Shown: positions 15,466 through 52,216 of the stretch, piece by piece
Position numbering within the stretch: the stretch's first letter is position 1
How the letters are laid out: each line of letters begins with the position of its first letter
Source of the DNA: Strigamia acuminata
Taxonomy: Eukaryota
Direction of reading: 5' to 3'
Length of the DNA stretch: 64,000 nt
Assembly: GCA_949358305.1 (NCBI GenBank)
Contig: OX442314.1
Span: 3,162,001-3,226,000, forward strand
The notes under the pieces: model-generated
What the model was told of the DNA's origin: nothing
Seen by the model: the letters and a program-made list of their open reading frames with translations, nothing else
The model's database searches: none
Translations under genes and position numbers: made by a program

Positions 15466-17376
15466 TATGACGGTTTACAATGGCTATAAATGCCTATTTT
15501 CTATCAAGAAAGCGCTGTTGCGCCAATATGATGGTATTTTTACAATATTCTGTGTAAAACTGATAAATGTCTAGAATAAAGTCATTTATGATGTTTCAAA
15601 TACAAAGATGTTCGTTTATTAAGAATAAACACTAATTTCCACATGATACTAAAGTATCACGGCATAATTACGAAGATTCGTCTGCTAAAACCCGCATTTG
15701 TCAATGCTCCATATTGCCACTAGATGGCGCGATCGCAATTAGCGATAAATTCGAATACGAACTTGAAAACCTCATGATTAAATATAAACGTATATTTAAT
15801 CAAGTGAATAAATTGTGTTAAATATTAATATAAATATATATTAAATATCTGACATTGTTAAATACAATGTAACTTCCATTTCTGCGGGACAGAATGTTTA
15901 GCGATCAATCGGTCAACCGATCAATCTGATTGGTGGAACCCATTTCCGGTCCTGGGTATCCAGTTCCGGTTGTAACAAGGATTAGCATAATTTGCATAAA
16001 TGCTCCTCCGTATCCACTTCCGGTGATACGGGATTGGAGGGATTCGTGGAACCCATGTTCCAATTGGATAACTGGATTAATCCTTAATCCAGTCAGGTTA
16101 TATAAACCCAAACAACCGGCCATTCTGCAGCTCTGTTTGATTATTTCTGTTTGGTATTGTTACTTAAGAAGTATGATTCGTTGTTCACGTAAAAAACCTT
16201 TTGGTTCTTTGTTGATTTATTCGCAAAGAACCGTTGCATGATTCTACAGAATCATGCCACCGCCGGCAATTGAAGTCGAAGTGCTGGGATTATTATGTTG
16301 CATAAATGTTACAGTCTACGGTTGCGACGCCGAAGGAGAACCCGCCGTTGTGCAATTCAGTATCCTCCGGACAGGACCAAGTTGTCTTTTTCGGTATGAA
16401 CGTATTCCGTTACCACGAGTAGCATCGGTATTGTTGAGAATCGGTTCCTTCACCTGATGGTGCCAAAGCAGTCTGTTTTACAGTAACCACGAGTAGCACC
16501 AAGTGTTTGGCAAGCTGATTCTCATGGTATTCGATGCCAAAGCAGTCGGTCTATTATTAGTACCGCGAGAGATAAAACTGCTGTGCGGAGCCGCGAGCTA
16601 TCGACCCCTGTGTACGTGGTACCGTCAACCACTCGATGGACGACCGTGCTGCGACGCCGGGGACGCTTGATACCGTTCTGCATGGCAAGGCGTATATTCT
16701 AATCGATGGCAATTGTGTGTTGCGACGGGAAGCTTAATCTTCATTTTATTTATAACAGCAAAACTTAAACTCGACAACCAGTTGGACCAAAATCAAGTCA
16801 GAAGACTTAATCTCATATTGAACTCAATATAACCGATAAGTTGACGACAACTTATTCCCGAAATATCTAAATAAGAATTCACAACGATATGAATTAAATA
16901 TAATTCATAAGTGGAATATTGATAAGTAAATGAATACATTTACTTACACCAATATCCTCCCAAAGTTGTGGCGGTGCAGACAAAGTCAACCGCAATGCTC
17001 AGATCATTCGATTTATCGACGTGCGATAGTTTACACAGCGAACCAAGGAAACCAGCGAAGCCGTATCGGACTCCAGGACACAGCCATCCGGCTTAAGATG
17101 ACATCTATAATCAGGTCGAGCGATGGGGAAACCGCTCCCATATTCCAGACCCGTAGTGATATTATTCTAGGGCCAGTTGGCCAATTCTTTGTATAGTTTA
17201 ATAGCTGATTTAACTTGCCAAATGTCGGCATTAGTCCTATGTATAATTTAGCTCATCCATATTGTTTGCCAACAATAAACTGTCTTGTATTTATCTCGTA
17301 TTGTATTCACTGTTTATTTATTGCGATCTCTTCCCGGTACCATTGTTAAATGGGAGTTGTGGTCGTCACCGTCACA
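15466..17376 (+). repeat. Element A copy 2, 5' LTR (TA-start haplotype)
   Basis: TATGACGGT...ACCGTCACA, followed by CG and the PBS. Confidence 0.95.
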
Positions 17377-17378
17377 CG

Positions 17379-17397
17379 TGGAGGTCCCACCGAGATT
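17379..17397 (+). promoter_or_regulatory. Primer-binding site complementary to the tRNA-Gln 3' end
   Basis: TGGAGGTCCCACCGAGATT is the reverse complement of AATCTCGGTGGGACCT-CCA. It lies 2 bp after the LTR and is repeated at 17614-17632. Confidence 0.88.
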
Positions 17398-20300: not shown

Positions 20301-20560
20301 AGTTGTGGTTGTAACGATATCACACACTAACGGAATAATTAAAAGAAAAATATTTTTTGAAGAAAAGTTATTTAATTATTTGGATTGGTAAAAATCCCAA
20401 AGTTCAAGAAGATTGAAGTAAGTTTATTTTATTTTCATTTGAAAAATACAATATTTTACGAATGTCTTCCCGAAGGAATTTTATTTTATCGGTAAAATTG
20501 AATCTCGAAGGGAACGGACTTAGTAGAGAACTACTAAATAGATGTAACGTCCTTTATACC

Positions 20561-20658
20561 ATTGGCCGACACTAACATCCGCCAATCAGAAGTTGGGAGA
20601 TCTAGGGATCCCCAGCCCCCTGCTATTAAAGGAGGACCAGATCAGATACTGATCATTC
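20561..20658 (+). promoter_or_regulatory. Putative internal Pol II promoter of the element A ORF
   Basis: ATTGG 20561, CCAAT 20582, TATTAAA 20624 and initiator-like TCATTC 20653 at canonical spacing; GC-richer island in AT-rich DNA, ~250 bp upstream of the ATG. Confidence 0.5.
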
Positions 20659-20900
20659 GCATCCAGACCAGACCAGAAGACGTGTTCCAGAGTCATCTTG
20701 ACCACGCCGTCCCGATTTCAGTCACGATTCGAATTTTGTGTGCCGTGTAACCTGCAAAAGCTAACACGTGTCAAACAAACGCGAAGTTTAATTTTATTTT
20801 GTCAAAAGTAAAGTTTAGAAGTGTTTCTTGTTGAAAAGTGTATTATATTCGTCTTCTTTATAAATTAAAGAATTAAAATCGTCAGATTTTGAATTTTTTT

Positions 20901-22382
20901 ATGGCTCAAAAACCATTGAATATGATCGATCCAAAAGGAAATAATAAGCAGACAAACTTAAATTTAAGTTCTGTACCACTTGGCGATCAAACAGAAAAGA
21001 TTCCCGATCATTTTACTCTGTATTGTAATCGTCATGGACTGGATAAAACCAAGTTTAAAAATATAATCGAAGCTTCAGACTATGTAAAAGCTAGGAACTG
21101 GCGAGATCGTACCCAATCTCAATCTTCACATCAAGATCCAGTACGGAATCCACAAACATACAGCCGAAACTTAGTGAATCAAGATTCTCATACTATGTTT
21201 CAAACATCCAGTAGGGGATCTAAGTTAGAAAAGTTTAAACCACCTAATTCGGTAGATAAGGGGGAAGAGAATTATAAACCTAATAATTCTCGTCCAGAGA
21301 GTTCGTTAACTAACCAGTCGGTTGTTCAGAACAAATTAAAACTCGTTTACAATCGAGATCAGCTAATTTCAGTTCGATATGCTAATCCAGCTGAAGCACA
21401 ACGATATGTGGCTAGCCTTAATCTGTCGATTAACCTACCGCTATCAAAAGAATTGGGAACCGTAAACAAAAGTTTTGGGCCACCAATATCAACGCAAAGG
21501 AAAGATATTCGGACTCCAAACAAACATTTGCAGTCAAATAACGTACAACAACGTGCCCGATCGCCGATCACAAACTCATGTTTGCGGACGTATGATTTGT
21601 CTACCAAGAAGAGTCCCCAGCCAAGACAATTCTACCTAACGCCCATTTCAAATCGAAAAAAGGTCAAGCAAACTTTTCCCTTGAAAAAGTATTACCAACA
21701 CGATAATGAGAATGATTTTAAACCTAAAAAAGAAAGTTTTTTGACTAACCCACGGGAGATCCGGTATCAATTCGAACAGTATTGTAAACAATACCAGTTA
21801 AATTCAGCTGAATTTAAAAATATAAACGAAGCGCAACAATTCGTATTTCGAAATCAATACCGTAACCAACGACTAAAACCCGTCCCAGTCGTCAATCTGA
21901 CGGAGATACAACAATTTGCGTCTGGAAAGCAACCCTGCAATATCCAGAATAATTCATCTCAACGAGAGGAATTAAGAACTTCAAAAAAGCGTTTTCGGTC
22001 ACCAAGTCCAGCTGGTGATGAAGAAACTTCAAGTACAAACCAACATGTTCAAAAACTGACTGAAAACCCAGGTTTCCAATCATCAGTTCCACGACTTAGA
22101 GTCAAATATAGATCCCCTCGTTTGTTGCGGGATTTCACAATTCCAAATATGGGTCCTTTCCACGTATGGTTTTCCAATGAGGGTCCCATTCATGTATGGT
22201 TTTCCAGAGATGACCTAAAACAAAAAGTTGGGTCGTCACGGTCATTTACACTGCCAAGTGAGTACACTGTGTGTAACTGCCCAAAGAAAAAACGTCGAAA
22301 GAAATCAGTACAGCAGGCTGAGAGATCTCGGAAATTTGCAAATATGCGAGCTCAATATTTAGCAAAGAATCATGTTGATTAA
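20901..22382 (+). CDS. Element A cargo protein, 493 aa from first ATG, unknown family; duplicated module and C-terminal NLS-like PKKKRRKK
   Basis: Long intact ORF in very AT-rich DNA, conserved in all copies; no gag, PR, RT, IN or env motif recognised. Confidence 0.75.
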   Translation: MAQKPLNMIDPKGNNKQTNLNLSSVPLGDQTEKIPDHFTLYCNRHGLDKTKFKNIIEASDYVKARNWRDRTQSQSSHQDPVRNPQTYSRNLVNQDSHTMFQTSSRGSKLEKFKPPNSVDKGEENYKPNNSRPESSLTNQSVVQNKLKLVYNRDQLISVRYANPAEAQRYVASLNLSINLPLSKELGTVNKSFGPPISTQRKDIRTPNKHLQSNNVQQRARSPITNSCLRTYDLSTKKSPQPRQFYLTPISNRKKVKQTFPLKKYYQHDNENDFKPKKESFLTNPREIRYQFEQYCKQYQLNSAEFKNINEAQQFVFRNQYRNQRLKPVPVVNLTEIQQFASGKQPCNIQNNSSQREELRTSKKRFRSPSPAGDEETSSTNQHVQKLTENPGFQSSVPRLRVKYRSPRLLRDFTIPNMGPFHVWFSNEGPIHVWFSRDDLKQKVGSSRSFTLPSEYTVCNCPKKKRRKKSVQQAERSRKFANMRAQYLAKNHVD

Positions 22383-23382
22383 CATGATATGATACACAAA
22401 GATTCCCCGATTATAGTGTAAACAGAAAATCCTCTTCTAAAAATCATGACCTCTCTTCTAAAGAAAAGGGGGACAAAATATAAAGTTAAAATTAACAATT
22501 CTCGAAAAGTAATATTACAGTATTAAAAGACAACTAGTTTAAATTAAAATTAGTCAATTGTACAAAGAATACCAAGTGACTCCGGTCATGACAATTAAGG
22601 AGGACATTTTGATTCTTAAATTGTCAACTCTTATCATCTAAAAGCTATTTATTGTATATTTATAGCGATACATCTGACTAGGCATATGAAATAAATATTT
22701 TGTGATAACACAAATGATGATTTTATGTATGACGAAAGTTTCTTCAAAAAGAAGACTTGGAAATAAATTCTGGACTTGAATTTAGGCTATTAGAAAAGAT
22801 TATTTCGGCAGAAATCCAGAACTTAGATAATTCAAGTTAGTTTATGTAAACTCAAATTCGAAATTGGAAGTCACGGTATCTCCAAGATACATCAAGTCCG
22901 AAAATAGCATTTATGCTAATTAGGAGAATAACGAAAACTCTATAAAATATTATATAGTTGTGTTATTAAGGGGGATGTATGACGGTTTACAATGGCTATA
23001 AATGCCTATTTTCTATCAAGAAAGCGCTGTTGCGCCAATATGATGGTATTTTTACAATATTCTGTGTAAAACTGATAAATGTCTAGAATAAAGTCATTTA
23101 TGATGTTTCAAATACAAAGATGTTCGTTTATTAAGAATAAACACTAATTTCCACATGATACTAAAGTATCACGGCATAATTACGAAGATTCGTCTGCTAA
23201 AACCCGCATTTGTCAATGCTCCATATTGCCACTAGATGGCGCGATCGCAATTAGCGATAAATTCGAATACGAACTTGAAAACCTCATGATTAAATATAAA
23301 CGTATATTTAATCAAGTGAATAAATTGTGTTAAATATTAATATAAATATATATTAAATATCTGACATTGTTAAATACAATGT

Positions 23383-26300
23383 TATGACGGTTTACAATGG
23401 CTATAAATGCCTATTTTCTATCAAGAAAGCGCTGTTGCGCCAATATGATGGTATTTTTACAGTATTCTGTGTAAAACGGATATAATTCCTAAATAAAGCT
23501 ATTTATGAGGTTTCCATGATAAAAGATGATGTATTAATTAGTATTAATAACATTCCTACATGATATCAAGATATCACGACCAAATCACGATGATTCGTCT
23601 ACTAAAACCGCATTTGTCAATGCGCAATGTTGTCGCCAGATGGCGCGATCACGATTTAGCGGTAAATTCAAGATATGAATATAAAACATGTAAATAAATA
23701 TAAAACTATATTTACTAGAACGAAACGAAGCTTTGTGAACATTAATATAAAGATATATTAATGTCTTTTGATGTTAAATACATTATAACTTCCATTTTCT
23801 GCGGGATAGAACATTTGGTGATCAATCGATCAACCGATCGATCTGATTGGTGGATCCATTTCCGGCCCTGGGTATCCAGTTCCGGTTGTGGTGAGAATTA
23901 GCATAATGCTCCTCCGTATCCACTTCCGGTGATACGGGATTGGAGGGATTCGTGGAACCCATGTTCCAATTGGATGACTGGATTAATCCTTAATCCAGTC
24001 AGGTTATATAAACCCAAACAATCGGCCATTCCGCAGCTCTGTTTGATTATTTTCTGTTTGGTATTGTTACTTATGAAATATGATTCGTTGTTCACGTAAA
24101 AAACCTTTTGGTTCTTTGTTGATTTATTCGCAAAGAACCGTTGCATGATTCTACAGAATCATGCCACCGCCGGCAATTGAAGTCGAAGTGCTGGGATTAT
24201 TATGTTGCATAAATGTTACAGTCTACGGTTGCGACGCCGAAGGAGAACCCGCCGTTGTGCAATTCAGTATCCTCCGGACAGGACCAAGTTGTCTTTTTCG
24301 GTATGAACGTATTCCGTTACCACGAGTAGCATCGGTATTGTTGAGAATCGGTTCCTTCACCTGATGGTGCCAAAGCAGTCTGTTTTACAGTAACCACGAG
24401 TAGCACCAAGTGTTTGGCAAGCTGATTCTCATGGTATTCGATGCCAAAGCAGTCGGTCTATTATTAGTACCGCGAGAGATAAAACTGCTGTGCGGAGCCG
24501 TGAGCTATCGACCCCTGTGTACGTGGTACCGTCAACCACTCGATGGACGACCGTGCTGCGACGCCGGGGACGCTTGATACCGTTCTGCATGGCAAGGCGT
24601 ATATTCTAATCGATGGCAATTGTGTGTTGCGACGGGAAGCTTAATCTTCATTTTATTTATAACAGCAAAACTTAAACTCGACAACCAGTTGGACCAAAAT
24701 CAAGTCAGAAGACTTAATCTCATATTGAACTCAATATAACCGATAAGTTGACGACAACTTATTCCCGAAATATCTAAATAAGAATTCACAACGATATGAA
24801 TTAAATATAATTCATAAGCGGAATATTGATAAGTAAATGAATACATTTACTTACACCAATATCCTCCCAAAGTTGTGGCGGTGCAGACAAAGTCAACCGC
24901 AATGCTCAGATCATTCGATTTATCGACGTGCGATAATTTACACAGCGAACCAAGGAAACCAGCGAAGCCATATCGGACTCCAGGACACAGCCATCCGGCT
25001 TAGATGACATCTGTAAACCAGGTCGAGCGATGGGGAAACCGCTCCCTTATCCCAGACACGTAATGATATTATTTTAGGACCAATTGGCCTATGCTTTGTA
25101 TAGTTTAATAGTCAGTTAACTTGCCAAATGTTGGCATTAGTCTTATGTATAATTTAGCTCACTGCATATTGTTTGCCAACAATAAATTGTCTTGTATTTA
25201 TCTCGTATTGTATTCACTGTTATTTATCGCGATCTCTTCCCGGTACCATTGTTAAATGGGAGTTGTGGTCGTCACCGTCACACGTGGAGGTCCCACCGAG
25301 ATTAGGTTGCAATTAAATTCGATTGAATTGCAACAGTGAATATTGGAGATAAATATTTAACTAAAAGATTTAAGTTAAAAATAGACAGATTAAATTCTCA
25401 GTTTATATTTCCATGTGAAGAAGTTAAACTGATGAAATAGAAATACGTAGTAGATTTTCCTTCATTATTTTCGTTTGAAGATTTTAGGGATTTCAAAGAC
25501 TACCACCTAATCTCACACGTGGAGGTCCCACCGAGATTAGGTTGCAATTAAATTCGATAGAATTGTAAAAGTGAATTTTGAGATAAATATTTAACTAAAA
25601 GATTTAGTTAAAAAACAGACCAGTTTCAAACCATGTTTATTTTCTTGAGAAACACCAAAACTGTCCTTTAACTAGGAATTTCGGAAGTTATAGACCTATC
25701 ACACGATCACTGAAATAGGTTGCAAATTAATTCGATCGAATTGCAAAAGCGAATCTTGAATCCGATATTAACAAAAAAATTTTAGTTAAAACAGACAAAT
25801 AGATTTTCAGTTTATATTTTCATGTGAAAAGTTAAACTGACGAAATGGAAACGTTTAGTGAACTCTCTTTACTATTTTCGTTCGACAATTTAAGGAATAC
25901 GAAGTATTTTAAATAAGAAATCAAAAAAAAGTTTCGAGTGAAATAAGAATACAGATATTTTTTTCGAAGTTTGTTTTATTTCGAAAAGCTAAAAACATAC
26001 AAGTTTAGAAGGCGGACTTCTTACGAATTTATCTTTCCACCTGAAAAGTTAAAACGAAGAAAACACCGCAACTATTTGGAAATATTTACAAGAAATTAAG
26101 TTTCTTGTAACTGTACGTCGACACCGATAGCCAGCGACCACGCGCCATAGCAATACGCGTCGATCTCCGTATCAAACGCAGCAGGGAAGCTACTCAAACC
26201 TTCAACGCAAGGTGCGAACGAATGCTTGGAAATTATGGCGGACAACAGATAAAAGACAGCGGAGAAATGTTACAGAAGGTTCGTAGAGATTTATTTAAGT

Positions 26301-29300
26301 GTCGCGAACTAATTTTTCCACTGCCATCGGTACCAAAGATAATTTAGTTGTTGGAGAAAAAACAACACACTCCATTTCGCAGAAAAGATTTGCAAATCGA
26401 AATGAATATTACCTTTATTTGAAGGAATTAACTATTTTCACAAAAAGTACATTTTTTCCTTCGGGACAATGGAAATTAAGAAAATATAAAATGGCGGCGA
26501 ATGAAGTTGCCGACCACATAGAATAGTATTTTTTACATTGAAAGTTACGAATCACGATAAACGCTTTCCCTCGGAAAAGTAAAAGGATTTCATTCAATCT
26601 TTCCTTTCGGAAATTTAACAGTGTTTTAAGTTTCCAACGATATTTGGGTCTCCCAAATTTTGAGAATTTCTAAATGAAATTTAGCTGTTTGAAAAACAAC
26701 GAATATTTTTAGTAATCTAATCGGACATTTTCCCACATGATTTCTTAAAACCGGAATAACAAATCCATTTGTGGCTATGAACTTTGCCACATGAAATATT
26801 TACGGAGCGAATATTTTTTGATTGGATTGAAGCTTTAAAATCAGATAGCTGATTTAAACGAAGAAAATAAGTTTCAAAGTAATTATTTTTCTTTCGGAAA
26901 AATCAAATAAATCACCGCTGATGAAAAGTTGTATTTTTCCATTCGAAAAAACTAAGAATTGCACAAGATTTATCTTCTATTTTGAACATAGATTTTATTC
27001 GGAAAAGGAAAGATTCTAGATACATTATTTTTCTCTAAAAATTAAGAATTTAGTCAATTTTCCTAAAGGTTAATGGAATGTCATCATATATTTCGTTCGT
27101 AATTTACGTGTTAAAGTTTAATCAGAAAAACGATTGAATATGTTTTATTTGCGATAAGTAAAAGAAAGGTTCTTTAAAAATGGAATTTCGATGCAAATCC
27201 CACAGTAAAGGGAATGTTATGTGTGAGCAATTAACGAAAAGTTGGAATAACTTCATTTTATTTCATTCAAAAGTAGTTGTGAAAAATCAATTTCAAATAT
27301 TTTTCAAAGAAAAATTATTTTTATCGGAAAAAAGTAATTTACATGTCCTCGCGCGGACCGAGTAGTAAACTGCTTAATTGTGACATCGATACTGTTATTG
27401 TGTCACGTGTTATACGGAATTCCAAACCAGTGAATTACGAATTTTGGCGCGATAGGAATAGAAGTTTGACAGTGAAAGTTCTCCAGATTTGTCTTTTCAT
27501 TTGAAAAGTTCAAATTGAGGAAATGCTGCAGCAGATGAAGGTATTTACGACAATTGAGATTTAAATATTCTTTCATTCAAAAGATAAAAGATCTCTGCAA
27601 AAACATCTCGTTATTAGAGATAAGGGGGACGAAAATTATTAAAACGAATAATCAAAGACACGTCCTTCGTAAATATCGCAAAGGAATAACTAATTGTGAA
27701 AACAATTGTCCGCTCAGGAAAAGTGGAATTTAGCTAGATATTTTCTTTCGAAAAATCAAAGCAATTGTCATCAAAAAAGAAAGATTTGATGAATAATTTT
27801 TACCCAAAAGTCTAAAGGATTGTCGAATAGTTTTCTCCCGAAAAACAAGTACACATTTGTACCAATAACTTTATCGTTTAAAGTAAAATTTCGAATATTT
27901 TCTTTTGGAAGATTAGAGAATTAGATAATTTTTCTCGCAAAACAAATTTAAAGAATTTTAACGAATTTTTATTTGTTAAAAAAATTTGTTAAAAAAGGGG
28001 GAGATGGATGGTGAAAATTTATTTTTTCACACTCGAAAAATGGAATTTAAACCCGAAAAAGTAAAGACTTGGTCAAATTATTCTTCCTATTGGAAATGAA
28101 TACACAATGTTGGGAATCGAAAATAGATTTCAATTACAAAGGAATGATTATTTGAACGATAATTGAATAAGAATAAGAAAAATTGAGAGTTTGAGAAAAC
28201 TTTATTAAAACTGTGGTTGTAATGATATTACACACTAAACGGAATAATCAAAGAAAAATATTTTTTGAAGAAAAGTTATTTAATTATTTGGATTGGTAAA
28301 AATCCCAAAGTTCAAGAAGATTGAAGTAAGTTTATTTTATTTTCATTTGAAAAATACAATATTTTACGAATGTCTTCCCGAAGGAATTTTATTTTATCGG
28401 TAAAATTGAATCTCGAAGGGAACGGACTTAGTAGAGAACTACTAAATAGATGTAACGTCCTTTATACCATTGGCCGACACTAACATCCGCCAATCAGAAG
28501 TTGGGAGATCTAGGGATCCCCAGCCCCCTGCTATTAAAGGAGGACCAGATCAGATACTGATCATTCGCATCCAGACCAGACCAGAAGACGTGTTCCAGAG
28601 TCATCTTGACCACGCCGTCCCGATTTCAGTCACGATTCGAATTTTGTGTGCCGTGTAACCTGCAAAAGCTAACACGTGTCAAACAAACGCGAAGTTTAAT
28701 TTTATTTTGTCAAAAGTAAAGTTTAGAAGTGTTTCTTGTTGAAAAGTGTATTATATTCGTCTTCTTTATAAATTAAAGAATTAAAATCGTCAGATTTTGA
28801 ATTTTTTTATGGCTCAAAAACCATTGAATATGATCGATCCAAAAGGAAATAATAAGCAGACAAACTTAAATTTAAGTTCTGTACCACTTGGCGATCAAAC
28901 AGAAAAGATTCCCGATCATTTTACTCTGTATTGTAATCGTCATGGACTGGATAAAACCAAGTTTAAAAATATAATCGAAGCTTCAGACTATGTAAAAGCT
29001 AGGAACTGGCGAGATCGTACCCAATCTCAATCTTCACATCAAGATCCAGTACGGAATCCACAAACATACAGCCGAAACTTAGTGAATCAAGATTCTCATA
29101 CTATGTTTCAAACATCCAGTAGGGGATCTAAGTTAGAAAAGTTTAAACCACCTAATTCGGTAGATAAGGGGGAAGAGAATTATAAACCTAATAATTCTCG
29201 TCCAGAGAGTTCGTTAACTAACCAGTCGGTTGTTCAGAACAAATTAAAACTCGTTTACAATCGAGATCAGCTAATTTCAGTTCGATATGCTAATCCAGCT

Positions 29301-32300
29301 GAAGCACAACGATATGTGGCTAGCCTTAATCTGTCGATTAACCTACCGCTATCAAAAGAATTGGGAACCGTAAACAAAAGTTTTGGGCCACCAATATCAA
29401 CGCAAAGGAAAGATATTCGGACTCCAAACAAACATTTGCAGTCAAATAACGTACAACAACGTGCCCGATCGCCGATCACAAACTCATGTTTGCGGACGTA
29501 TGATTTGTCTACCAAGAAGAGTCCCCAGCCAAGACAATTCTACCTAACGCCCATTTCAAATCGAAAAAAGGTCAAGCAAACTTTTCCCTTGAAAAAGTAT
29601 TACCAACACGATAATGAGAATGATTTTAAACCTAAAAAAGAAAGTTTTTTGACTAACCCACGGGAGATCCGGTATCAATTCGAACAGTATTGTAAACAAT
29701 ACCAGTTAAATTCAGCTGAATTTAAAAATATAAACGAAGCGCAACAATTCGTATTTCGAAATCAATACCGTAACCAACGACTAAAACCCGTCCCAGTCGT
29801 CAATCTGACGGAGATACAACAATTTGCGTCTGGAAAGCAACCCTGCAATATCCAGAATAATTCATCTCAACGAGAGGAATTAAGAACTTCAAAAAAGCGT
29901 TTTCGGTCACCAAGTCCAGCTGGTGATGAAGAAACTTCAAGTACAAACCAACATGTTCAAAAACTGACTGAAAACCCAGGTTTCCAATCATCAGTTCCAC
30001 GACTTAGAGTCAAATATAGATCCCCTCGTTTGTTGCGGGATTTCACAATTCCAAATATGGGTCCTTTCCACGTATGGTTTTCCAATGAGGGTCCCATTCA
30101 TGTATGGTTTTCCAGAGATGACCTAAAACAAAAAGTTGGGTCGTCACGGTCATTTACACTGCCAAGTGAGTACACTGTGTGTAACTGCCCAAAGAAAAAA
30201 CGTCGAAAGAAATCAGTACAGCAGGCTGAGAGATCTCGGAAATTTGCAAATATGCGAGCTCAATATTTAGCAAAGAATCATGTTGATTAACATGATATGA
30301 TACACAAAGATTCCCCGATTATAGTGTAAACAGAAAATCCTCTTCTAAAAATCATGACCTCTCTTCTAAAGAAAAGGGGGACAAAATATAAAAGTTAGAA
30401 TTAACAAAATTTTGAAAAGTAATGCTACATTATTAAGACAACTAGTTTAAATTAAAATTAGTCAATTGTACAAAGAATACCAAGTGACTCCGGTCATGAC
30501 AATTAAGGGGGACATTTTGATTCTTAAATTGTCAACTCTTATCATCTAAAAGCTATTTATTGTATATTTATAGCGATACATCTGACTAGGCATATGAAAT
30601 AAATATTTTGTGATAACACAAATGATGATTTTATGTATGACGAAAGTTTCTTCAAAAAGAAGACTTGGAAATAAATTCTGGACTTGAATTTAGGCTATTA
30701 GAAAAGATTATTTCGGCAGAAAATCAGAACTTAGATAATTCAAGTTAGTTTATGTAAACTCAAATTCGAAATTGGAAGTCACGGTATCTCCAAGATACAT
30801 CAAGTCCGAAAAATAGCATTTATGCTAATTAGGAGAATAACGAAAACTCTATAAAATATTATATAGTTGTGTTATTAAGGGGGATGTATGACGGTTTACA
30901 ATGGCTATAAATGCCTATTTTCTATCAAGAAAGCGCTGTTGCGCCAATATGATGGTATTTTTACAGTATTCTGTGTAAAACGGATATAATTCCTAAATAA
31001 AGCTATTTATGAGGTTTCCATGATAAAAGATGATGTATTAATTAGTATTAATAACATTCCTACATGATATCAAGATATCACGACCAAATCACGATGATTC
31101 GTCTACTAAAACCGCATTTGTCAATGCGCAATGTTGTCGCCAGATGGCGCGATCACGATTTAGCGGTAAATTCAAGATATGAATATAAAACATGTAAATA
31201 AATATAAAACTATATTTACTAGAACGAAACGAAGCTTTGTGAACATTAATATAAAGATATATTAATGTCTTTTGATGTTAAATACATTATAACTTCCATT
31301 TTCTGCGGGATAGAACATTTGGTGATCAATCGATCAACCGATCGATCTGATTGGTGGATCCATTTCCGGCCCTGGGTATCCAGTTCCGGTTGTGGTGAGA
31401 ATTAGCATAATGCTCCTCCGTATCCACTTCCGGTGATACGGGATTGGAGGGATTCGTGGAACCCATGTTCCAATTGGATGACTGGATTAATCCTTAATCC
31501 AGTCAGGTTATATAAACCCAAACAATCGGCCATTCCGCAGCTCTGTTTGATTATTTTCTGTTTGGTATTGTTACTTATGAAATATGATTCGTTGTTCACG
31601 TAAAAAACCTTTTGGTTCTTTGTTGATTTATTCGCAAAGAACCGTTGCATGATTCTACAGAATCATGCCACCGCCGGCAATTGAAGTCGAAGTGCTGGGA
31701 TTATTATGTTGCATAAATGTTACAGTCTACGGTTGCGACGCCGAAGGAGAACCCGCCGTTGTGCAATTCAGTATCCTCCGGACAGGACCAAGTTGTCTTT
31801 TTCGGTATGAACGTATTCCGTTACCACGAGTAGCATCGGTATTGTTGAGAATCGGTTCCTTCACCTGATGGTGCCAAAGCAGTCTGTTTTACAGTAACCA
31901 CGAGTAGCACCAAGTGTTTGGCAAGCTGATTCTCATGGTATTCGATGCCAAAGCAGTCGGTCTATTATTAGTACCGCGAGAGATAAAACTGCTGTGCGGA
32001 GCCGCGAGCTATCGACCCCTGTGTACGTGGTACCGTCAACCACTCGATGGACGACCGTGCTGCGACGCCGGGGACGCTTGATACCGTTCTGCATGGCAAG
32101 GCGTATATTCTAATCGATGGCAATTGTGTGTTGCGACGGGAAGCTTAATCTTCATTTTATTTATAACAGCAAAACTTAAACTCGACAACCAGTTGGACCA
32201 AAATCAAGTCAGAAGACTTAATCTCATATTGAACTCAATATAACCGATAAGTTGACGACAACTTATTCCCGAAATATCTAAATAAGAATTCACAACGATA

Positions 32301-32786
32301 TGAATTAAATATAATTCATAAGCGGAATATTGATAAGTAAATGAATACATTTACTTACACCAATATCCTCCCAAAGTTGTGGCGGTGCAGACAAAGTCAA
32401 CCGCAATGCTCAGATCATTCGATTTATCGACGTGCGATAATTTACACAGCGAACCAAGGAAACCAGCGAAGCCATATCGGACTCCAGGACACAGCCATCC
32501 GGCTTAGATGACATCTGTAAACCAGGTCGAGCGATGGGGAAACCGCTCCCTTATCCCAGACACGTAATGATATTATTTTAGGACCAATTGGCCTATGCTT
32601 TGTATAGTTTAATAGTCAGTTAACTTGCCAAATGTTGGCATTAGTCTTATGTATAATTTAGCTCACTGCATATTGTTTGCCAACAATAAATTGTCTTGTA
32701 TTTATCTCGTATTGTATTCACTGTTATTTATCGCGATCTCTTCCCGGTACCATTGTTAAATGGGAGTTGTGGTCGTCACCGTCACA
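23383..32786 (+). mobile_element. Element A copy 3 (complete), nested in the 3' LTR of copy 2
   Basis: LTRs 23383-25282 and 30887-32786; PBS at 25285; TSD ATGT (23379-23382 / 32787-32790); the host LTR resumes exactly after the TSD. Confidence 0.95.
28809..30290 (+). CDS. Element A cargo protein (copy 3)
   Basis: Translation identical to 20901-22382. Confidence 0.75.
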   Translation: MAQKPLNMIDPKGNNKQTNLNLSSVPLGDQTEKIPDHFTLYCNRHGLDKTKFKNIIEASDYVKARNWRDRTQSQSSHQDPVRNPQTYSRNLVNQDSHTMFQTSSRGSKLEKFKPPNSVDKGEENYKPNNSRPESSLTNQSVVQNKLKLVYNRDQLISVRYANPAEAQRYVASLNLSINLPLSKELGTVNKSFGPPISTQRKDIRTPNKHLQSNNVQQRARSPITNSCLRTYDLSTKKSPQPRQFYLTPISNRKKVKQTFPLKKYYQHDNENDFKPKKESFLTNPREIRYQFEQYCKQYQLNSAEFKNINEAQQFVFRNQYRNQRLKPVPVVNLTEIQQFASGKQPCNIQNNSSQREELRTSKKRFRSPSPAGDEETSSTNQHVQKLTENPGFQSSVPRLRVKYRSPRLLRDFTIPNMGPFHVWFSNEGPIHVWFSRDDLKQKVGSSRSFTLPSEYTVCNCPKKKRRKKSVQQAERSRKFANMRAQYLAKNHVD

Positions 32787-34300
32787 ATGTAACTTCCATT
32801 TCTGCGGGACAGAATGTTTAGCGATCAATCGGTCAACCGATCAATCTGATTGGTGGAACCCATTTCCGGTCCTGGGTATCCAGTTCCGGTTGTAACAAGG
32901 ATTAGCATAATTTGCATAAATGCTCCTCCGTATCCACTTCCGGTGATACGGGATTGGAGGGATTCGTGGAACCCATGTTCCAATTGGATAACTGGATTAA
33001 TCCTTAATCCAGTCAGGTTATATAAACCCAAACAACCGGCCATTCTGCAGCTCTGTTTGATTATTTCTGTTTGGTATTGTTACTTAAGAAGTATGATTCG
33101 TTGTTCACGTAAAAAACCTTTTGGTTCTTTGTTGATTTATTCGCAAAGAACCGTTGCATGATTCTACAGAATCATGCCACCGCCGGCAATTGAAGTCGAA
33201 GTGCTGGGATTATTATGTTGCATAAATGTTACAGTCTACGGTTGCGACGCCGAAGGAGAACCCGCCGTTGTGCAATTCAGTATCCTCCGGACAGGACCAA
33301 GTTGTCTTTTTCGGTATGAACGTATTCCGTTACCACGAGTAGCATCGGTATTGTTGAGAATCGGTTCCTTCACCTGATGGTGCCAAAGCAGTCTGTTTTA
33401 CAGTAACCACGAGTAGCACCAAGTGTTTGGCAAGCTGATTCTCATGGTATTCGATGCCAAAGCAGTCGGTCTATTATTAGTACCGCGAGAGATAAAACTG
33501 CTGTGCGGAGCCGCGAGCTATCGACCCCTGTGTACGTGGTACCGTCAACCACTCGATGGACGACCGTGCTGCGACGCCGGGGACGCTTGATACCGTTCTG
33601 CATGGCAAGGCGTATATTCTAATCGATGGCAATTGTGTGTTGCGACGGGAAGCTTAATCTTCATTTTATTTATAACAGCAAAACTTAAACTCGACAACCA
33701 GTTGGACCAAAATCAAGTCAGAAGACTTAATCTCATATTGAACTCAATATAACCGATAAGTTGACGACAACTTATTCCCGAAATATCTAAATAAGAATTC
33801 ACAACGATATGAATTAAATATAATTCATAAGTGGAATATTGATAAGTAAATGAATACATTTACTTACACCAATATCCTCCCAAAGTTGTGGCGGTGCAGA
33901 CAAAGTCAACCGCAATGCTCAGATCATTCGATTTATCGACGTGCGATAGTTTACACAGCGAACCAAGGAAACCAGCGAAGCCGTATCGGACTCCAGGACA
34001 CAGCCATCCGGCTTAAGATGACATCTATAATCAGGTCGAGCGATGGGGAAACCGCTCCCATATTCCAGACCCGTAGTGATATTATTCTAGGGCCAGTTGG
34101 CCAATTCTTTGTATAGTTTAATAGCTGATTTAACTTGCCAAATGTCGGCATTAGTCCTATGTATAATTTAGCTCATCCATATTGTTTGCCAACAATAAAC
34201 TGTCTTGTATTTATCTCGTATTGTATTCACTGTTTATTTATTGCGATCTCTTCCCGGTACCATTGTTAAATGGGAGTTGTGGTCGTCACCGTCACATTTA

Positions 34301-37201
34301 TCAAATGAGTTTCTCCGCTACCTTCAAGACAAGGGTATTCAGGGACAGCGAACAAACCCGTCATCGCCACAAATAAACGGCACGGCCGAGCGCATAAACC
34401 GAACAATGGCCGACAATTTTCGCGCAGTTTTATCCGAAACCAAATTGCCGGAAGCGCTCTGGGCCGAACTCGCAGTCTCGTTTTCTTATATCAAGAACCG
34501 GAATCCTCATTCACGACTCAACAATCAAGTCCCCTTCATCCTTTGGCGGCAGAGAGCATTGTCATTACGACACTTACGTAAACTGGGCTCCAAATGCTGG
34601 GCGCATTTCACTGCACCAGGCCGCAAGAAACTGGATCCGTGGGCCTGGGAGGGGTATTTAGTCGGCTACGCCACAGGGACCCGTGGATACAGAATTTGGA
34701 ATCCGTCTGATAACAAAGTCTACGAATCTATTTATGTCAAGGTCGATGAACGGCAATCGTATCGAAAATCTATCAAAGTTTCAACCCAACGACCTGAGGA
34801 ATCATTTACCAATCCTGGACAACAGCAATCAGTTTCGTTCAGTGATGATGCCAAGTATCATGCTTGGCCGAGGGGATCCGACTCTGAAGGATCAAATCGC
34901 TCTGACAATGATTCCGATAATGGGGACAATGGCAATCAGACATCAACGTCTGCATCCATGCACACGCCGCTTATCCAATTACCTCCGCCGACAACGCCTG
35001 AGAGATTATTATTGGAAGCATGCTCGTTGGAATTGCCCTCTTCGGCCAGCTTAAGACAATCAATGTCATATCCCACTCTTTTTCAAGCAGATGACACGGA
35101 TGCTGACATTGCACAAATGGATAACATATCGTTATATCCCGGGACATCCGAATTTACCGGCACATCCGCGGAACAATCACCGCGCCAGTCACCTCCGGTA
35201 ACGCCTCATCCATCTGCACCACCGTCCCCACAACGTTCTCCGACTCGTTCACCTTCACTTGATCCGCCAAGATTTGTTACAACACGTCGCAGACAACGTG
35301 CTGATGATCCAATGACTCACACTTTGCAAATCTTTGATCCCGCGCCCATGTCACCAGCACCTATATTGGGGACTGAAGTTGCCGCAGCAACTGCACGCCA
35401 TACAACACATATGTGGCGATTAGTCGGCGGAGATGGACCATGTAGTGAATGGATCCGTGAAGAACATCTTCGAAAAGATCAGAAGCCTGGATCTATTTTA
35501 ATCGATGTTTATTATTTCCCGACTCCAAAGATTCGACTCAGATCTTACAAGGATATTGAGGATTACTGCATGTTGAATAACATCGATTATGAACCAGAAC
35601 TTTTCTTTTTCGGTAACCTCGAACATAAATTGCCAACTCTTCCGGGCGTTCGTCATGCGGCTCACTTATGCCGAACTGAACCAGCTTCATATGCTGAAAT
35701 TCCGAAGTTTAATGACGCTCCGAAATGGCGCGAAGCCATACAGGAAGAATTAGATACATTCAAAGAAAGGGAGATTTATGAAGAAGTTCCGAAACCACCG
35801 AACACAACGATACTCGGCTGCAAGTGGATTTTTAAGTTGAAGACCGATGCAGCCGGAACCGTCACCCGATATCGAGCACGCCTAGTAGCGCAAGGTTTTC
35901 GCCAAACCCTCGGTGTGGATTTCGACGAAGTGTTTAGTCCGGTTGTGAACTTCATTCTCATTCGTTTATTCTTCTGTCTTCTCGTGGTATTACGCGGCTG
36001 GAAGGACGCCCATCTCGACGTTAAATGTGCGTACCTGTACGGGGAGTTAAAGCATAAGGTTTACATGCGAATCCCGGCAGGTGCCACATGTTTCGATCCA
36101 AACAACGTATGGCTACTCATCAAGTCATTATATGGGCTCCACCAGTCCGGAAGACAGTGGTTCGAAAAACTCGACGAAACACTTCGGGCCCTCGGATTTC
36201 GAAAGATGCCGGCATGCAACTGCGTTTACGTATTCGGCAATACCGCTGTCATGCTGGTTTACGTGGACGATATAGTTTTATTTTATGCATCCGACAGTGC
36301 CTTTAAACAACTGATTCAACTCATCAGTTCGAAATTCGACATCGTAAATCTTGGCCCGATCACGAAACTCCTAGGCGTCGAATTCATCCGTGACGCCGGA
36401 CGCACGTTCATCACCCAACGTGCTTACATCGCAAAGATTGTTAAGAAGTTCGGGACGACGACTAACAACCTCGTTAAAGTGCCAGTGACCCCTGGAACTA
36501 CACTCGTCAGAGGGTCAACCGAAAATCTAGAGGACTTTCCTTACCGATCTCTAATTGGTTCATTGTTGTTCCTGGCATCGAGAACTCGCCCCGACATCTT
36601 ATACTCCGTCATCGCTCTGGCACAGTTCAACACGTGCTACAATCGAACCCACATCCGTGCTTTGTTACAGGTTCTGCAGTACGTGGCAAATACTGCAGAC
36701 CTCTGCATCGAATTATCCGATTGCGCTTCCAGCCAACTCTCAGCTTTTACCGATGCATCGTGGGCGAGCGACCCGGAAACGTCATTGAGTTTCGGAGGAT
36801 ACATTGTTTATGTCGGAAACGTGCCCATTGGCTGGTCATGCCGCAAACAATCGACAGTGGCATGCTCTACTATGGAAGCGGAATTTATCGCCCTAGTAGA
36901 GTGTGTGAAAGAACTTTTCTGGCTCGACCATGTTTACACTGACTTTCCAATTCTCAATCGTCTCTCTCGACCCATCGTATATTCCGACGCCCTGGCCTCC
37001 ATTCAATTTACGTCCAACGACATCGAGAACGCGAAAACAAAACACATTCGCGTGAAATATCATTGGCTCAGGGAGTGGTTTACGGCTGGAGTCTTCGATC
37101 TTCGAAAAGTGGCCGGCGAGATTAATATCGCGGACATTTTTACAAAATGGCTCGCATCAGAACGTTTGCGATCGCTGATTTCGAAGATCTTCCGAGCATA
37201 A
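34301..37201 (+). CDS. pol: Copia pol C-terminal part: rest of integrase, SH3-like region, MBD-like domain, reverse transcriptase, RNase H
   Basis: NGTAERINRT, GYLVGY..GYRIW, EWIREEHLRK..IDVYYFP..RLRSYKDIEDYC, YRARLVAQGF, KSLYGLHQSGRQW, LVYVDD, FTDASW, NIADIFTK. In frame with 13363-15465 once element A and one TSD are removed. Confidence 0.95.
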   Translation, partial: SNEFLRYLQDKGIQGQRTNPSSPQINGTAERINRTMADNFRAVLSETKLPEALWAELAVSFSYIKNRNPHSRLNNQVPFILWRQRALSLRHLRKLGSKCWAHFTAPGRKKLDPWAWEGYLVGYATGTRGYRIWNPSDNKVYESIYVKVDERQSYRKSIKVSTQRPEESFTNPGQQQSVSFSDDAKYHAWPRGSDSEGSNRSDNDSDNGDNGNQTSTSASMHTPLIQLPPPTTPERLLLEACSLELPSSASLRQSMSYPTLFQADDTDADIAQMDNISLYPGTSEFTGTSAEQSPRQSPPVTPHPSAPPSPQRSPTRSPSLDPPRFVTTRRRQRADDPMTHTLQIFDPAPMSPAPILGTEVAAATARHTTHMWRLVGGDGPCSEWIREEHLRKDQKPGSILIDVYYFPTPKIRLRSYKDIEDYCMLNNIDYEPELFFFGNLEHKLPTLPGVRHAAHLCRTEPASYAEIPKFNDAPKWREAIQEELDTFKEREIYEEVPKPPNTTILGCKWIFKLKTDAAGTVTRYRARLVAQGFRQTLGVDFDEVFSPVVNFILIRLFFCLLVVLRGWKDAHLDVKCAYLYGELKHKVYMRIPAGATCFDPNNVWLLIKSLYGLHQSGRQWFEKLDETLRALGFRKMPACNCVYVFGNTAVMLVYVDDIVLFYASDSAFKQLIQLISSKFDIVNLGPITKLLGVEFIRDAGRTFITQRAYIAKIVKKFGTTTNNLVKVPVTPGTTLVRGSTENLEDFPYRSLIGSLLFLASRTRPDILYSVIALAQFNTCYNRTHIRALLQVLQYVANTADLCIELSDCASSQLSAFTDASWASDPETSLSFGGYIVYVGNVPIGWSCRKQSTVACSTMEAEFIALVECVKELFWLDHVYTDFPILNRLSRPIVYSDALASIQFTSNDIENAKTKHIRVKYHWLREWFTAGVFDLRKVAGEINIADIFTKWLASERLRSLISKIFRA

Positions 37202-37422
37202 ACATATCGTGACATTCCTAATTTATTTTCACCCGACTTCGAGGATCATCGAGTTTCTGAGGGAATTTTCGGGCTTCCTTTGAGAAGAGTTCTTCAATGA
37301 CAGTACCCGGCTCGGTGATTCGTAATTTTTATTGTTTTCCATTTTTCAAATGTTTATATACTGTAATTCCAGTACCCGATTGTATTTTTCCCCTGCAAAA
37401 ACTTAAGATCGAAGAGGGGATT

Positions 37423-37940
37423 TGTAGGTCTAAAGACCACTGATTTTATCGATATTAAGTATTTACAGCTCTCTTATATCATAATTATCAATCAAACGAT
37501 TGCTTTTGTTATTATTCGACATTTCTGTTCAATTTGATGCTGTCACGTATGTAATTCCATACAATTCTCTAATTTATGATATGATTTGTTCTTTTGTTGA
37601 CCGATATTGTCAATTACTGGCACCAGGGTGCCATATGTATTAACTTTACTTATCCAACATGGCGCTACACACGAGCGTGTGTAGCTCAACTTCTTTATCC
37701 AGTTATGAACTCAAATGTAATGTATTTTCCAATATTAAATTGTTTTTATTATTTTAATTCATTGTGTCCACTTTAAAGCACATTAGGTGCTATTAGTTTG
37801 CGCATATAAGCGGCAATTTCCGCGCGCCCGTATCGCATTTAAACGACACGTCGTCGTTACGTCCGTGCGAGTAGCACGGCCCCGTTTCTCCACGCTTCCC
37901 GGCGATATATCGCCGATATTTTGCGCACAACTCTGCTACA
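37423..37940 (+). repeat. Copia-C 3' LTR
   Basis: Preceded by the PPT, followed by TSD GAACC. Confidence 0.97.
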
Positions 37941-38696
37941 GAACCGGGGGTCGACCGACTCGAACCGGGGGTCGACCGACTCGAACCGGGGGTCGACCGA
38001 CTCGAACCGGGGGTCGACCGACTCGAACCGGGGGTCGACCGACTCGAACCGGGGGTCGACCGACTCGAACCGGGGGTCGACCGACTCGAACCGGGGGTCG
38101 ACCGACTCGAACCGGGGGTCGACCGACTCGAACCGGGGGTCGACCGACTCGAACCGGGGGTCGACCGACTCGAACCGGGGGTCGACCGACTCGAACCGGG
38201 GGTCGACCGACTCGAACCGGGGGTCGACCGACTCGAACCGGGGGTCGACCGACTCGAACCGGGGGTCGACCGACTCGAACCGGGGGTCGACCGACTCGAA
38301 CCGGGGGTCGACCGACTCGAACCGGGGGTCGACCGACTCGAACCGGGGGTCGACCGACTCGAACCGGGGGTCGACCGACTCGAACCGGGGGTCGACCGAC
38401 TCGAACCGGGGGTCGACCGACTCGAACCGGGGGTCGACCGACTCGAACCGGGGTTCGACCGACTCGAACCGGGGGTCGACCGACTCGAACCGGGGGTCGA
38501 CCGACTCGAACCGGGGGTCGACCGACTCGAACCGGGGGTCGACCGACTCGAACCGGGGGTCGACCGACTCGAACCGGGGGTCGACCGACTCGAACCGGGG
38601 GTCGACCGACTCGAACCGGGGGTCGACCGACTCGAACCGGGGGTCGACCGACTCGAACCGGGGGTCGACCGACTCGAATTGGGGGTCGACCGACTC
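37941..38696. repeat. 21-bp minisatellite, ~36 units
   Basis: Direct inspection. Confidence 0.98.
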
Positions 38697-39908
38697 GGGA
38701 TGGGATACTTGGGTCGAAATGAATAAGGTCGAAACAAGAACTCGACCTTATTCATTTCGACCCTAGTCATTTCTGTATGTCTAATTTTGACCTTCTTCAT
38801 GAATAAGATCGAAACATCATTTTGACCTTAGTCATTTCGACCTTATTCATGAATAAGATCGAAATAGGATTTCGACCTTAGTCATTTCGACCCTAGTCAT
38901 TTCGGTGTATGTAATTTCGACCTTATTCATGAATAAGGTCGAAACTTTAAATTTTTATATGAATAAGGTCGAAAAACAAAAACTCAAAAACATGAGAATT
39001 TCACATGAGAATCTCGTGTCTTCTCTCGTTTTCTAATAACAATGTAAAAAATGTTTTTTATTTTATCACTTGTTTTATATTTGCAGGAAACCAGAGCTTC
39101 TAGAAGAAACTATTTCATATTTTTCTCATTTATTTTATAATTAAGTAATAAAATAACCTTATTTTAGCCTACATAAAGTTGTTTTTATTTTGATATTAAT
39201 TTAATTTTTTTTTGAACGTTAATTGGCAGTATAAAGTGTGTACACACTGGCCTGATCAAACAATGCAAAAAACACCGCCCAAAACACCGTATCTATTAAA
39301 GAATGCGCGCCGGCAGGCTGCTTAGCGCATTTACCCGGTGCTTCACTGCATCAACGCCATTTTTTTTCTCGGTTTTTCATGTTTTTCACATCGTTTTAAC
39401 TCGTTTTTATCATTTTTTTATGATTTCTTAATTTTTTTTTCATTTTTAAACCGTTTTTTTACGGCTTTTAATGTTTTTTTCCCATTTTTTTTCCATTTTT
39501 TGATGATTTTTCAGGTTTTTTTTTAAGTTTTAATTGGTTTTTCGTGGTTTTTAATATTTTTATTGGTTTTAATGTGTGTTTTATGATCTTTTACGTGTTT
39601 TTCCAGAAGACACAAGATTCTCATGTGAAATTCTCATGTTTATGAGTTTTTAACTTTCGACCTTATTCATATAAAAATTTAGAGTTTCGACCTCATTCAT
39701 GAATAAGGTCGACCTTATACATATTTCGACCTTATTCATGAATAAGATAGAAACAGCATTTCGACCTTAGTCCTTTCGACCCTAGTCATTTCTGTATATG
39801 TAATTTCGACTTTAATCATTTCACCCAGGGATGGGATACTTGGGTCGAAATTAATAAGGTCAAAACAGGATTTCAACCTTATTCATTTCGACCTTAGTAT
39901 GAAATCCC
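38697..39908. mobile_element. 1.2-kb non-coding foldback (MULE-like) element H, copy 1
   Basis: Termini GGGATGGGATACTTGGGTCGAAATGAATAAGG...CCTTATTCATTTCGACCTTAGTATGAAATCCC, flanked by ACCGACTC on both sides. Subterminal TTCGACCTTATTCAT repeats and ~110-bp internal inverted repeats. The superfamily call is inference. Confidence 0.6.
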
Positions 39909-51968: not shown

Positions 51969-52216
51969 CGGGGGTCGACCGACTCGAACCGGGGGTCGAC
52001 CGACTCGAACCGGGGGTCGACCGACTCGAACCGGGGGTCGACCGACTCGAACCGGGGGTCGACCGACTCGAACCGGGGGTCGACCGACTCAAACCGGGAG
52101 TCGACCGACTCGTACCGGGGGTCGACCGACTCGAACCGGGGGTCGACCGACTCGAACCGGGGGTCGACCGACTCGAACCGGGGGTCGACCGATTCGAATC
52201 GGGGGTCGACCGACTC
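51969..52216. repeat. 21-bp minisatellite, ~12 units
   Basis: Direct inspection. Confidence 0.97.

What the first reader, a model, noticed from the sequence alone, without database searches (positions are those of the whole stretch)
35435..35613. Methyl-CpG-binding domain inside a Copia polyprotein (between integrase and RT)
Seen: GPCSEWIREEHLRKDQKPGSILIDVYYFPTPKIRLRSYKDIEDYCMLNNIDYEPELFFF lies in frame after a Ser/Pro-rich linker at the integrase C-terminus. Established: the MBD consensus is W.RE...RK.G....DVYY..P.G.K.RS..E...Y...FDF. Both mCpG-contacting arginines (RK and RS) and the DVYY motif are present. MBD-bearing Copia elements have been described from a centipede and spiders (de Mendoza et al. 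2019, Genome Research), so the class is known but this family may not be. Inference: an integrase tether to methylated DNA, analogous to chromovirus chromodomains. It also suggests a myriapod or chelicerate host.
Basis: partly seen in the sequence, partly recalled or inferred. Interest (0 to 1): 0.85.

Follow-up and report, generated by a model that had tools for sequence, protein, structure and literature searches.

The report
Centipede-type Copia retrotransposon with methyl-DNA reader
This is a young but interrupted copy of an already published family of arthropod jumping genes (CopiaMBD), and its borrowed methyl-CpG-binding-type domain likely steers new insertions into methylated, CpG-rich DNA, so it is a new member of a known family, not a new kind of element.

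Summary
The domain is real. Window 35414-35632 encodes an MBD in frame between the integrase tail and RT of a Copia element. It scores below Pfam's cut-off alone (17.5 bits against 21), but a profile of relatives, the predicted fold and the four key residues (two Arg, Asp, Tyr) all agree. The element has 518-bp LTRs, 99.0% alike (11949-12466, 37423-37940), and a 5-bp target duplication. In RT/RNase H trees it lies inside one clade (100/99) with the published Stegodyphus CopiaMBD. Its nearest MBD and nearest RT are both from the centipede Strigamia maritima (51% and 54% identical). It is therefore a new member of CopiaMBD (de Mendoza 2019), likely from a centipede. Most likely the MBD stays on integrase and tethers it to methylated CpG-dense DNA; this is inferred. 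For: this copy sits in a 21-bp repeat with 18.7 CpG per 100 bp. Against: an LTR family with no MBD found sits in the same repeat, local repeats show no CpG decay, and the DNA-binding loop is unusual.

The parts
11150..11948 (.). Left part of the target: 21-bp tandem repeat, 38 units, 4 CpG per unit; it ends in the 5-bp target duplication GAACC (11944-11948)
11949..12466 (+). 5' LTR, 518 bp, TG...CA
12468..12485 (+). Primer-binding site; its match to the 3' end of animal initiator tRNA-Met is recalled, not tested
13363..15465 (+). First part of the polyprotein: Gag, zinc knuckle (14053-14100), protease (14311-14553), integrase zinc finger (15022-15189) and the start of the integrase core
   Evidence: Pfam Retrotran_gag_2, zf-CCHC, Pol_BBD, gag_pre-integrs, rve
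15466..34296 (+). Nested 18,831-bp tandem of another LTR family (1.9-kb LTRs, 4-bp target duplication TTTA, 501-codon ORF with no Pfam family), inserted in the integrase core
34298..34762 (+). Rest of the integrase core (rve_3, 34334-34534) and SH3-like domain (34553-34762)
34883..35413 (+). Ser/Pro/Thr-rich linker, 177 residues
35414..35632 (+). MBD. Trp 35450, Arg 35471 (MeCP2 R111 equivalent), Asp 35504 (D121), Tyr 35510 (Y123), Arg 35540 (R133), last Phe 35609
35771..36490 (+). Reverse transcriptase (RVT_2, E 7e-59; YVDD at 36260)
36752..37201 (+). RNase H region to the stop codon, assigned by recalled motifs and by position; no Pfam hit
37411..37420 (+). Polypurine tract
37423..37940 (+). 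3' LTR, 518 bp, 5 differences from the 5' LTR
37941..38697 (.). Right part of the target: second GAACC (37941-37945) and 36 more units of the 21-bp repeat

Best explanation
This is an interrupted copy of a CopiaMBD retrotransposon whose MBD lies just before RT, likely stays on the C-terminus of integrase after processing, and likely binds methylated CpG-dense DNA to bias where new copies insert. Shown here: the anatomy, the MBD sequence and predicted fold, the key residues, the clade, and one insertion into very CpG-dense DNA. Inferred: (1) the protease cuts about 20-30 residues after the MBD, leaving it on integrase; (2) the two arginines grip a methylated CpG, as in MeCP2 and MBD2; (3) this tethers the integration complex to methylated repeats, a safer place for the host. 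This copy is split in the integrase core, so the mechanism describes the family that placed it here.
For: A profile of alignment A1 matches solved MBD4, MBD3, MBD1, MeCP2 and MBD2 domains best (39-28 bits) and BAZ2 domains less well (28-19 bits). The model (pLDDT 86.4) has three strands and a helix; the top 10 of 48,161 chains are MBD-type. The key residues are kept in the query and in most of 31 relatives: Arg 29, Asp 29, Tyr 30, second Arg 27; their roles are from PMC10325892 passages and PMC6673714. RT/RNase H trees put the query in one clade with all MBD-bearing rows, 100/99. Three Strigamia CopiaMBD domains bound methylated CpG-dense DNA by DAP-seq (PMC6673714). Copia-type integrases carry targeting domains at the C-terminus (Ty1, Ty5; PMC7459421 passages). 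Of 17 newly found proteins of 800-1100 residues, 14 run Gag-protease-integrase-MBD and stop 11-38 residues after the MBD with no RT, which ties the MBD to the integrase side. The 150-bp flanks hold 18.7 CpG per 100 bp, against a median of 4.0 over 426 tiles, of which 23 reach 15.
Against: No binding or integration test exists for this domain. The stored Strigamia proteins that match tested CopiaMBD1 and 2 are only 26-27% identical to it. Its loop between the first Arg and the Asp has 10 residues with no SG..AG pattern; relatives have 9 (8 of 31) or 6 (23 of 31). The fold match does not separate methyl-binders from non-binders: BAZ2B and SETDB2 rank among the top hits, no Foldseek row reaches E 0.001, and the best Z is 6.7. 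The CpG-dense site is one event, and an LTR family with no MBD found sits in the same repeat at 42974-51968. Repeat copies in the window show no excess of CpG transitions (50 of 1122 against 206 of 4019 sites, ratio 0.87, p 0.39; 11 pairs, not independent), so there is no sequence sign that the target was methylated. The 2019 authors state that other roles cannot be rejected.
Confidence: 0.6

Rival explanations
1. The domain still tethers integrase, but reads CpG-dense DNA or chromatin without needing methylation, as some host MBD-type domains do.
For: Unusual DNA-binding loop. No CpG decay in local repeats. A neighbouring subclade of 8 unnamed proteins keeps a conserved domain at this position (profile match 97%) yet lacks the Asp, Tyr and second Arg, so the domain can be kept without the methyl-reading set.
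Against: All four key residues are kept in the query. Strigamia transposons are both CpG-dense and methylated (PMC6673714; PMC7343188 passages), so a lack of CpG decay need not mean a lack of methylation.
Confidence: 0.18
2. The MBD binds methylated DNA but acts outside integration, for example by competing with host MBD proteins and easing silencing of the element.
For: Raised as possible in PMC6673714. The local insertion pattern is not specific to the MBD element.
Against: The position at the integrase end is fixed across the clade, and many relatives end the ORF right after it. Competition would need high protein levels (argument of PMC6673714).
Confidence: 0.14
3. In this lineage the MBD is a decaying passenger with no function.
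For: Below Pfam's cut-off. The loop departs from the family. One Araneus gene model with a near-identical RT to an MBD-bearing one has no MBD (P0024 against P0013).
Against: The frame is open and every core residue is kept, while the linker beside it does not align with the two nearest full-length relatives. 51% identity to a Strigamia MBD is close to the 54% in RT/RNase H. Purifying selection was reported in Strigamia.
Confidence: 0.07
4. The stretch is not an MBD, or its join to the Copia frame is an assembly artefact.
For: Sub-threshold Pfam score; no single-sequence hit to solved structures; poor single-sequence model, pLDDT 48.6.
Against: Profile, fold, residues, language-model neighbours (0.89, a lead only) and relatives all agree. 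Contigs of 3 of 3 runs laid, from 2 studies, join linker and MBD.
Confidence: 0.01

Closest known systems
CopiaMBD of Strigamia maritima (de Mendoza, Pflueger, Lister 2019, PMC6673714); nearest proteins UniRef T1IGT7 (P0285) and T1IKL2 (P0312)
   Same: Copia order Gag-protease-integrase-MBD-RT-RNase H; short LTRs; same RT clade; MBD 37 of 73 residues identical to T1IGT7, with the shared (R/K)L(V/I)GG...W.REEHLR start; RT/RNase H 54% over 289 columns; sister in the tree (99). P0312 matches a row of the paper's Table S3 almost letter for letter (read by eye).
   Different: A distinct subfamily at about half identity; longer, atypical loop before the DVYY strand; not one of the three domains tested by DAP-seq; this copy is split by a nested insertion. 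T1IGT7 is a patchwork gene model (RT/RNase H, then MBD, then more RNase H), so its two parts may come from different copies.
Spider CopiaMBDs (Stegodyphus mimosarum KFM74814.1 = P0019; relatives in Araneus ventricosus, Trichonephila clavipes, Uloborus diversus)
   Same: Same clade and the same domain position (Uloborus by domain content only).
   Different: More distant: MBD 29% and RT 43% identical for P0019; most have a 6-residue loop.
Host MBD proteins (MBD4, MeCP2, MBD1/2/3)
   Same: Predicted fold and the Arg-Asp-Tyr-Arg set.
   Different: 17-33% identity in the Foldseek matches; no repression domains; carried inside a retrotransposon polyprotein.
Integrase C-terminal targeting modules (Ty1 TD1, Ty5 TD5, chromovirus chromodomains)
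   Same: A reader module at the integrase end that would pick the insertion site.
   Different: Those read host proteins or histone marks; this one would read a DNA mark directly. An analogy, not homology.

Membership tests
Ty1/Copia LTR retrotransposon | Domain order protease-integrase-RT-RNase H with RVT_2 | tested here: met
Ty1/Copia LTR retrotransposon | Paired TG...CA LTRs, 5-bp target duplication, primer-binding site, polypurine tract | tested here: met
Ty1/Copia LTR retrotransposon | One unbroken polyprotein in this copy | tested here: not met
   Nested insertion 15466-34296 in the integrase core; this bears on the activity of the copy, not on its family
CopiaMBD | MBD in the same ORF, after integrase and before RT | tested here: met
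CopiaMBD | RT in the single CopiaMBD clade with published members | tested here: met
   Clade 100/99 holding P0019, whose MBD matches the paper's Stegodyphus row; sister to Strigamia P0285. The paper's own RT alignment could not be read (cells cut)
CopiaMBD | Arthropod host | tested here: inconclusive
   All named relatives in the clade are arthropod; no host gene in the window and no genome held
CopiaMBD | Insertions biased to CpG-dense, methylated DNA | tested here: inconclusive
   One site, 18.7 CpG per 100 bp, shared with an LTR family in which no MBD was found; methylation not measurable here
MBD (PF01429) | Pfam gathering score of 21 bits | tested here: not met
   16.2 and 17.5 bits, E 0.008 and 0.003; 31 of 32 alignment members match the family at E 0.1 or better
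MBD (PF01429) | Three-stranded sheet plus helix, matching solved MBDs | tested here: met
   Predicted model; all Foldseek rows shown to rank 31 and the top 10 VIA rows are MBD-type, at modest scores
MBD, methyl-binding type | Arg, Asp, Tyr, Arg at the MeCP2 111/121/123/133 positions | tested here: met
MBD, methyl-binding type | Preferential binding to methylated CpG | not testable with these tools
   Needs a binding assay

The most novel reading that the evidence does not exclude
CopiaMBD is a much wider and more varied arthropod clade than published, and its captured reader has been retuned. This subfamily, with a rebuilt DNA-binding loop and a home in repeats that show no CpG decay, would target CpG-dense DNA by a rule other than plain methyl-CpG reading. 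A neighbouring subclade has dropped the methyl-reading residues while keeping the domain, and another lineage ends its first ORF right after the MBD.
Probability: 0.2. Interest if true: 0.6.

Novelty: new member of a known kind. Interest (0 to 1): 0.3.

Why it matters
The class is published, so this copy is not a surprise. Its use is as another natural test of the 2019 hypothesis, which asked for more arthropod lineages: a young, apparently multi-copy subfamily only about half identical to known members, sitting in extremely CpG-dense DNA. With the host's methylome, it would show whether MBD-bearing elements choose methylated targets. The side findings (a wider spider range, a subclade without the methyl-reading residues, ORFs that end at the MBD) suggest that the clade tracks changes in host methylation and deserves a survey.

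Tried and rejected
Single-sequence routes failed: phmmer against solved structures gave no MBD, the single-sequence model had pLDDT 48.6, and the first homolog search on the MBD alone found 0 hits among 8 candidates. No whole genome is held, so copy number and genome-wide flank tests were not possible. No RNA holder was listed among the runs; this says nothing on expression. No table of differences between copies within the MBD was obtained, so dN/dS for this subfamily remains open. The metagenome scan returned 75 loci of distant Copia relatives (best segments 26-50% identical); none of the 75 had an MBD match, so they gave no DNA for selection or flank tests. ARAGORN found no tRNA in the window. 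Pfam gave no MBD hit for 4 of 4 domains of the divergent subclade; the atlas put one of them nearest MBD clusters at 0.82, a lead only. Short TTAGG-type repeats at 62907-63050 were not used as host evidence: too short and common. Of the 120 hits, 110 rows with at least 380 aligned RT/RNase H residues (109 hits and the query) went into the first tree; later trees used hand-thinned sets of 43, 32 and 44 rows. Four rows inside the clade lacked an MBD call: two begin within the end of an MBD, one begins at RT, one truly lacks it. Earlier scan findings by place and by sequence were empty.

Full report
Observation. Pfam finds integrase core (rve_3), the retroviral SH3-like domain and RVT_2 in that frame, with the peptide between SH3 and RT, after a 177-residue linker that is 39% Ser, Pro and Thr. 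Alone it scores 16.2-17.5 bits on Pfam MBD, under the cut-off of 21, and it finds no MBD among solved structures. Relatives settle the matter. A search with the MBD-plus-RT region gave 1661 proteins, of which 120 were listed; 37 of those 120 carry a similar domain at E under 1e-8. A profile from 14 of them, without the query, scores the query 62 bits, against 7.1 for the best of 2000 shuffles and 4.8 for the next of 1179 six-frame segments of the window. The seeds were picked as the query's best matches, so the profile leans towards it; six of the 14 carry a precomputed Pfam MBD hit.

Is it an MBD? A profile of 32 sequences (A1) matches 33 solved sequences at E up to 0.1, 32 of them MBD-type, led by MBD4, MBD3, MBD1, MeCP2 and MBD2. 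With that alignment the model has pLDDT 86.4 and three strands followed by a helix. Foldseek lists only MBD-type domains in the rows shown down to rank 31, but none at E 0.001. VIA-align ranks ten MBD-type chains first of 48,161, at Z 6.7 to 3.6, with unrelated folds from 3.2; the tool warns that Z under 8 can be a common arrangement. Read against the MeCP2 row of the 2019 alignment, the query keeps the equivalents of R111, D121, Y123 and R133, with Asp for E137; 29, 29, 30 and 27 of 31 relatives keep the first four (rows were chosen by profile score). The roles of the two arginines, D121, E137 and loop L1 come from passages of PMC10325892, that of the tyrosine from PMC6673714. The query departs from the family in loop L1: ten residues with no SG..AG pattern, against nine or six in relatives.

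The element. Two 518-bp LTRs at 11949-12466 and 37423-37940 begin TG, end CA and differ at 5 sites; GAACC is duplicated on both sides. A primer-binding site follows the first LTR (its match to animal initiator tRNA-Met is recalled) and a polypurine tract precedes the second. Gag, zinc knuckle, protease, integrase zinc finger and the first part of the integrase core lie at 13363-15465. An 18,831-bp tandem of another LTR family with a 4-bp target duplication then interrupts the integrase core. The Copia-derived parts total about 7.2 kb, within the 4-8 kb of the Strigamia CopiaMBD rows I saw in Table S5. So this is a recent insertion, later broken. Contigs of 3 of 3 public runs laid (2 studies, one organism label) join linker and MBD, and 544 to 2534 contigs per run were laid across a wide range of likeness, which points to a multi-copy family rather than an assembly artefact; part of the stretch laid belongs to other repeats, and one of these runs may be the window's source.

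Family. In a tree of 110 RT/RNase H rows, the query lies in a starred clade of 44 that holds all 33 MBD rows, 7 rows with a divergent domain and 4 rows without a call, three of which are cut short at the N-terminus. A careful tree of 32 rows supports the clade at 100/99. The clade includes P0019 from Stegodyphus mimosarum, whose MBD matches the paper's own row. The full-library search gave 784 proteins at E up to 0.001. Among 202 stored MBD-bearing proteins the two nearest MBDs are Strigamia maritima T1IGT7 (37 of 73 identical) and T1IKL2 (28 of 73). The RT/RNase H part of T1IGT7 is 54% identical over 289 columns and is the query's sister in a quick tree (99). T1IGT7 is a patchwork gene model. 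A centipede host is therefore likely; it is not shown, as the window holds no host gene and no genome is held.

Mechanism. In PMC6673714 (parts 1-4 of 7 of the text read; supplementary table file parts 1, 42, 43 and 164; figures and the supplementary PDF not seen, RT alignment cells cut) three Strigamia domains bound methylated CpG-dense DNA, and young copies lay in CpG-denser, more methylated flanks. The authors inferred targeting but did not show it, and noted that the MBD might be cut from integrase. Two observations here bear on that point. After the MBD the query runs about 20-30 residues to a short hydrophobic stretch and the EP..Y motif that open RT in the relatives printed (that the protease cuts there is recalled from Ty1 and not tested). 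And 14 of 17 new proteins of 800-1100 residues end 11-38 residues after the MBD with no RT, so in that lineage the MBD is made with integrase, not with RT; I did not see their DNA. Targeting modules at the integrase C-terminus are established for Ty1 and Ty5 (PMC7459421 passages). This copy inserted into a 21-bp repeat with 18.7 CpG per 100 bp in both 150-bp flanks, against a window median of 4.0.

Evidence against. That site is a single event. Of five other LTR junctions measured in the window, one, from a family with no MBD found, lies in the same repeat at the same density; the rest have 0.7-10.7. Transitions at CpG are no commoner than at other C/G sites between repeat copies (50 of 1122 against 206 of 4019, p 0.39), and in 172 array units only 2 CpG transitions were seen against 13 elsewhere (neither set is independent). 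That gives no sign of germline methylation, though Strigamia transposons are CpG-dense and methylated at once (PMC7343188 passages). The tested domains are distant from this one (26-27%). The fold cannot tell methyl-binders from non-binders. A neighbouring subclade keeps the domain without three of the four key residues.

Literature. Five searches for MBD-bearing Copia elements listed only the 2019 paper on this class; the library lacks most subscription journals, so later reports may exist. One earlier scan note describes an MBD-like gene in a DNA transposon (e1-6728511); I did not check it, and it does not change the reading.

Verdict. A real MBD in a real, young, interrupted Copia element: a new subfamily of the known CopiaMBD clade (membership about 0.95), likely from a centipede. 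The most likely function is an integrase tether to methylated CpG-dense DNA (0.6), then a methylation-independent tether (0.18), a role outside integration (0.14) and a relic (0.07). Interest 0.3.

Noticed in passing
stored proteins P0006, P0007, P0009, P0010, P0015-P0018 (unnamed ENA and JGI records): A subclade next to the query in the RT tree keeps a conserved domain at the MBD position (profile match 97%) but lacks the Asp, Tyr and second Arg: a possible loss of methyl reading.
   Followed up: partly
stored proteins P0212, P0223, P0224, P0229, P0234, P0236, P0257, P0260, P0265, P0271, P0281, P0286, P0290, P0291: 14 of 17 new proteins of 800-1100 residues run Gag-protease-integrase-MBD and stop 11-38 residues after the MBD (one, P0286, has a cut MBD). 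DNA not seen. One paper search for such a split listed nothing relevant.
   Followed up: partly
P0047 (Trichonephila clavipes), P0013 and P0051 (Araneus ventricosus), P0149 (Uloborus diversus): CopiaMBD-type proteins in spiders beyond Stegodyphus. Nephila (Trichonephila) clavipes is on the 2019 paper's list of searched genomes and was not reported as a carrier; its domain is diverged.
   Followed up: partly
window 1-3175, 15466-34296, 42974-51968: Three insertions of one LTR family with 1.9-kb LTRs and a 501-codon ORF with no Pfam family; 4-bp target duplications at the two complete ones. No RT or integrase was found in its long ORFs, so it may be non-autonomous. Two insertions hit Copia coding regions and one hits the 21-bp repeat.
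   Followed up: partly
window 3176-5869, minus strand: A second Copia with the same primer-binding site, a leader 71% alike and Gag 31% identical; it is cut in gag by the same LTR family. Its 3' part lies outside the window, so whether it has an MBD is unknown.
   Followed up: partly
window 11150-11948, 37941-38697, 39909-40904, 42097-42973, 51969-52217, 53428-53511: Arrays of one 21-bp unit with four CpG and no GpC, inside a small repeated element; only about three units in the related copy near 62154.
   Followed up: partly
window 54427-61046: Gypsy element with LTRs of about 255 bp, a 4-bp target duplication and a broken pol; part of another copy lies at 5869-7645 on the other strand.
   Followed up: no
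whole window: CpG is enriched (observed/expected 1.1-1.6 in all regions measured) and shows no excess of transitions between repeat copies.
   Followed up: partly
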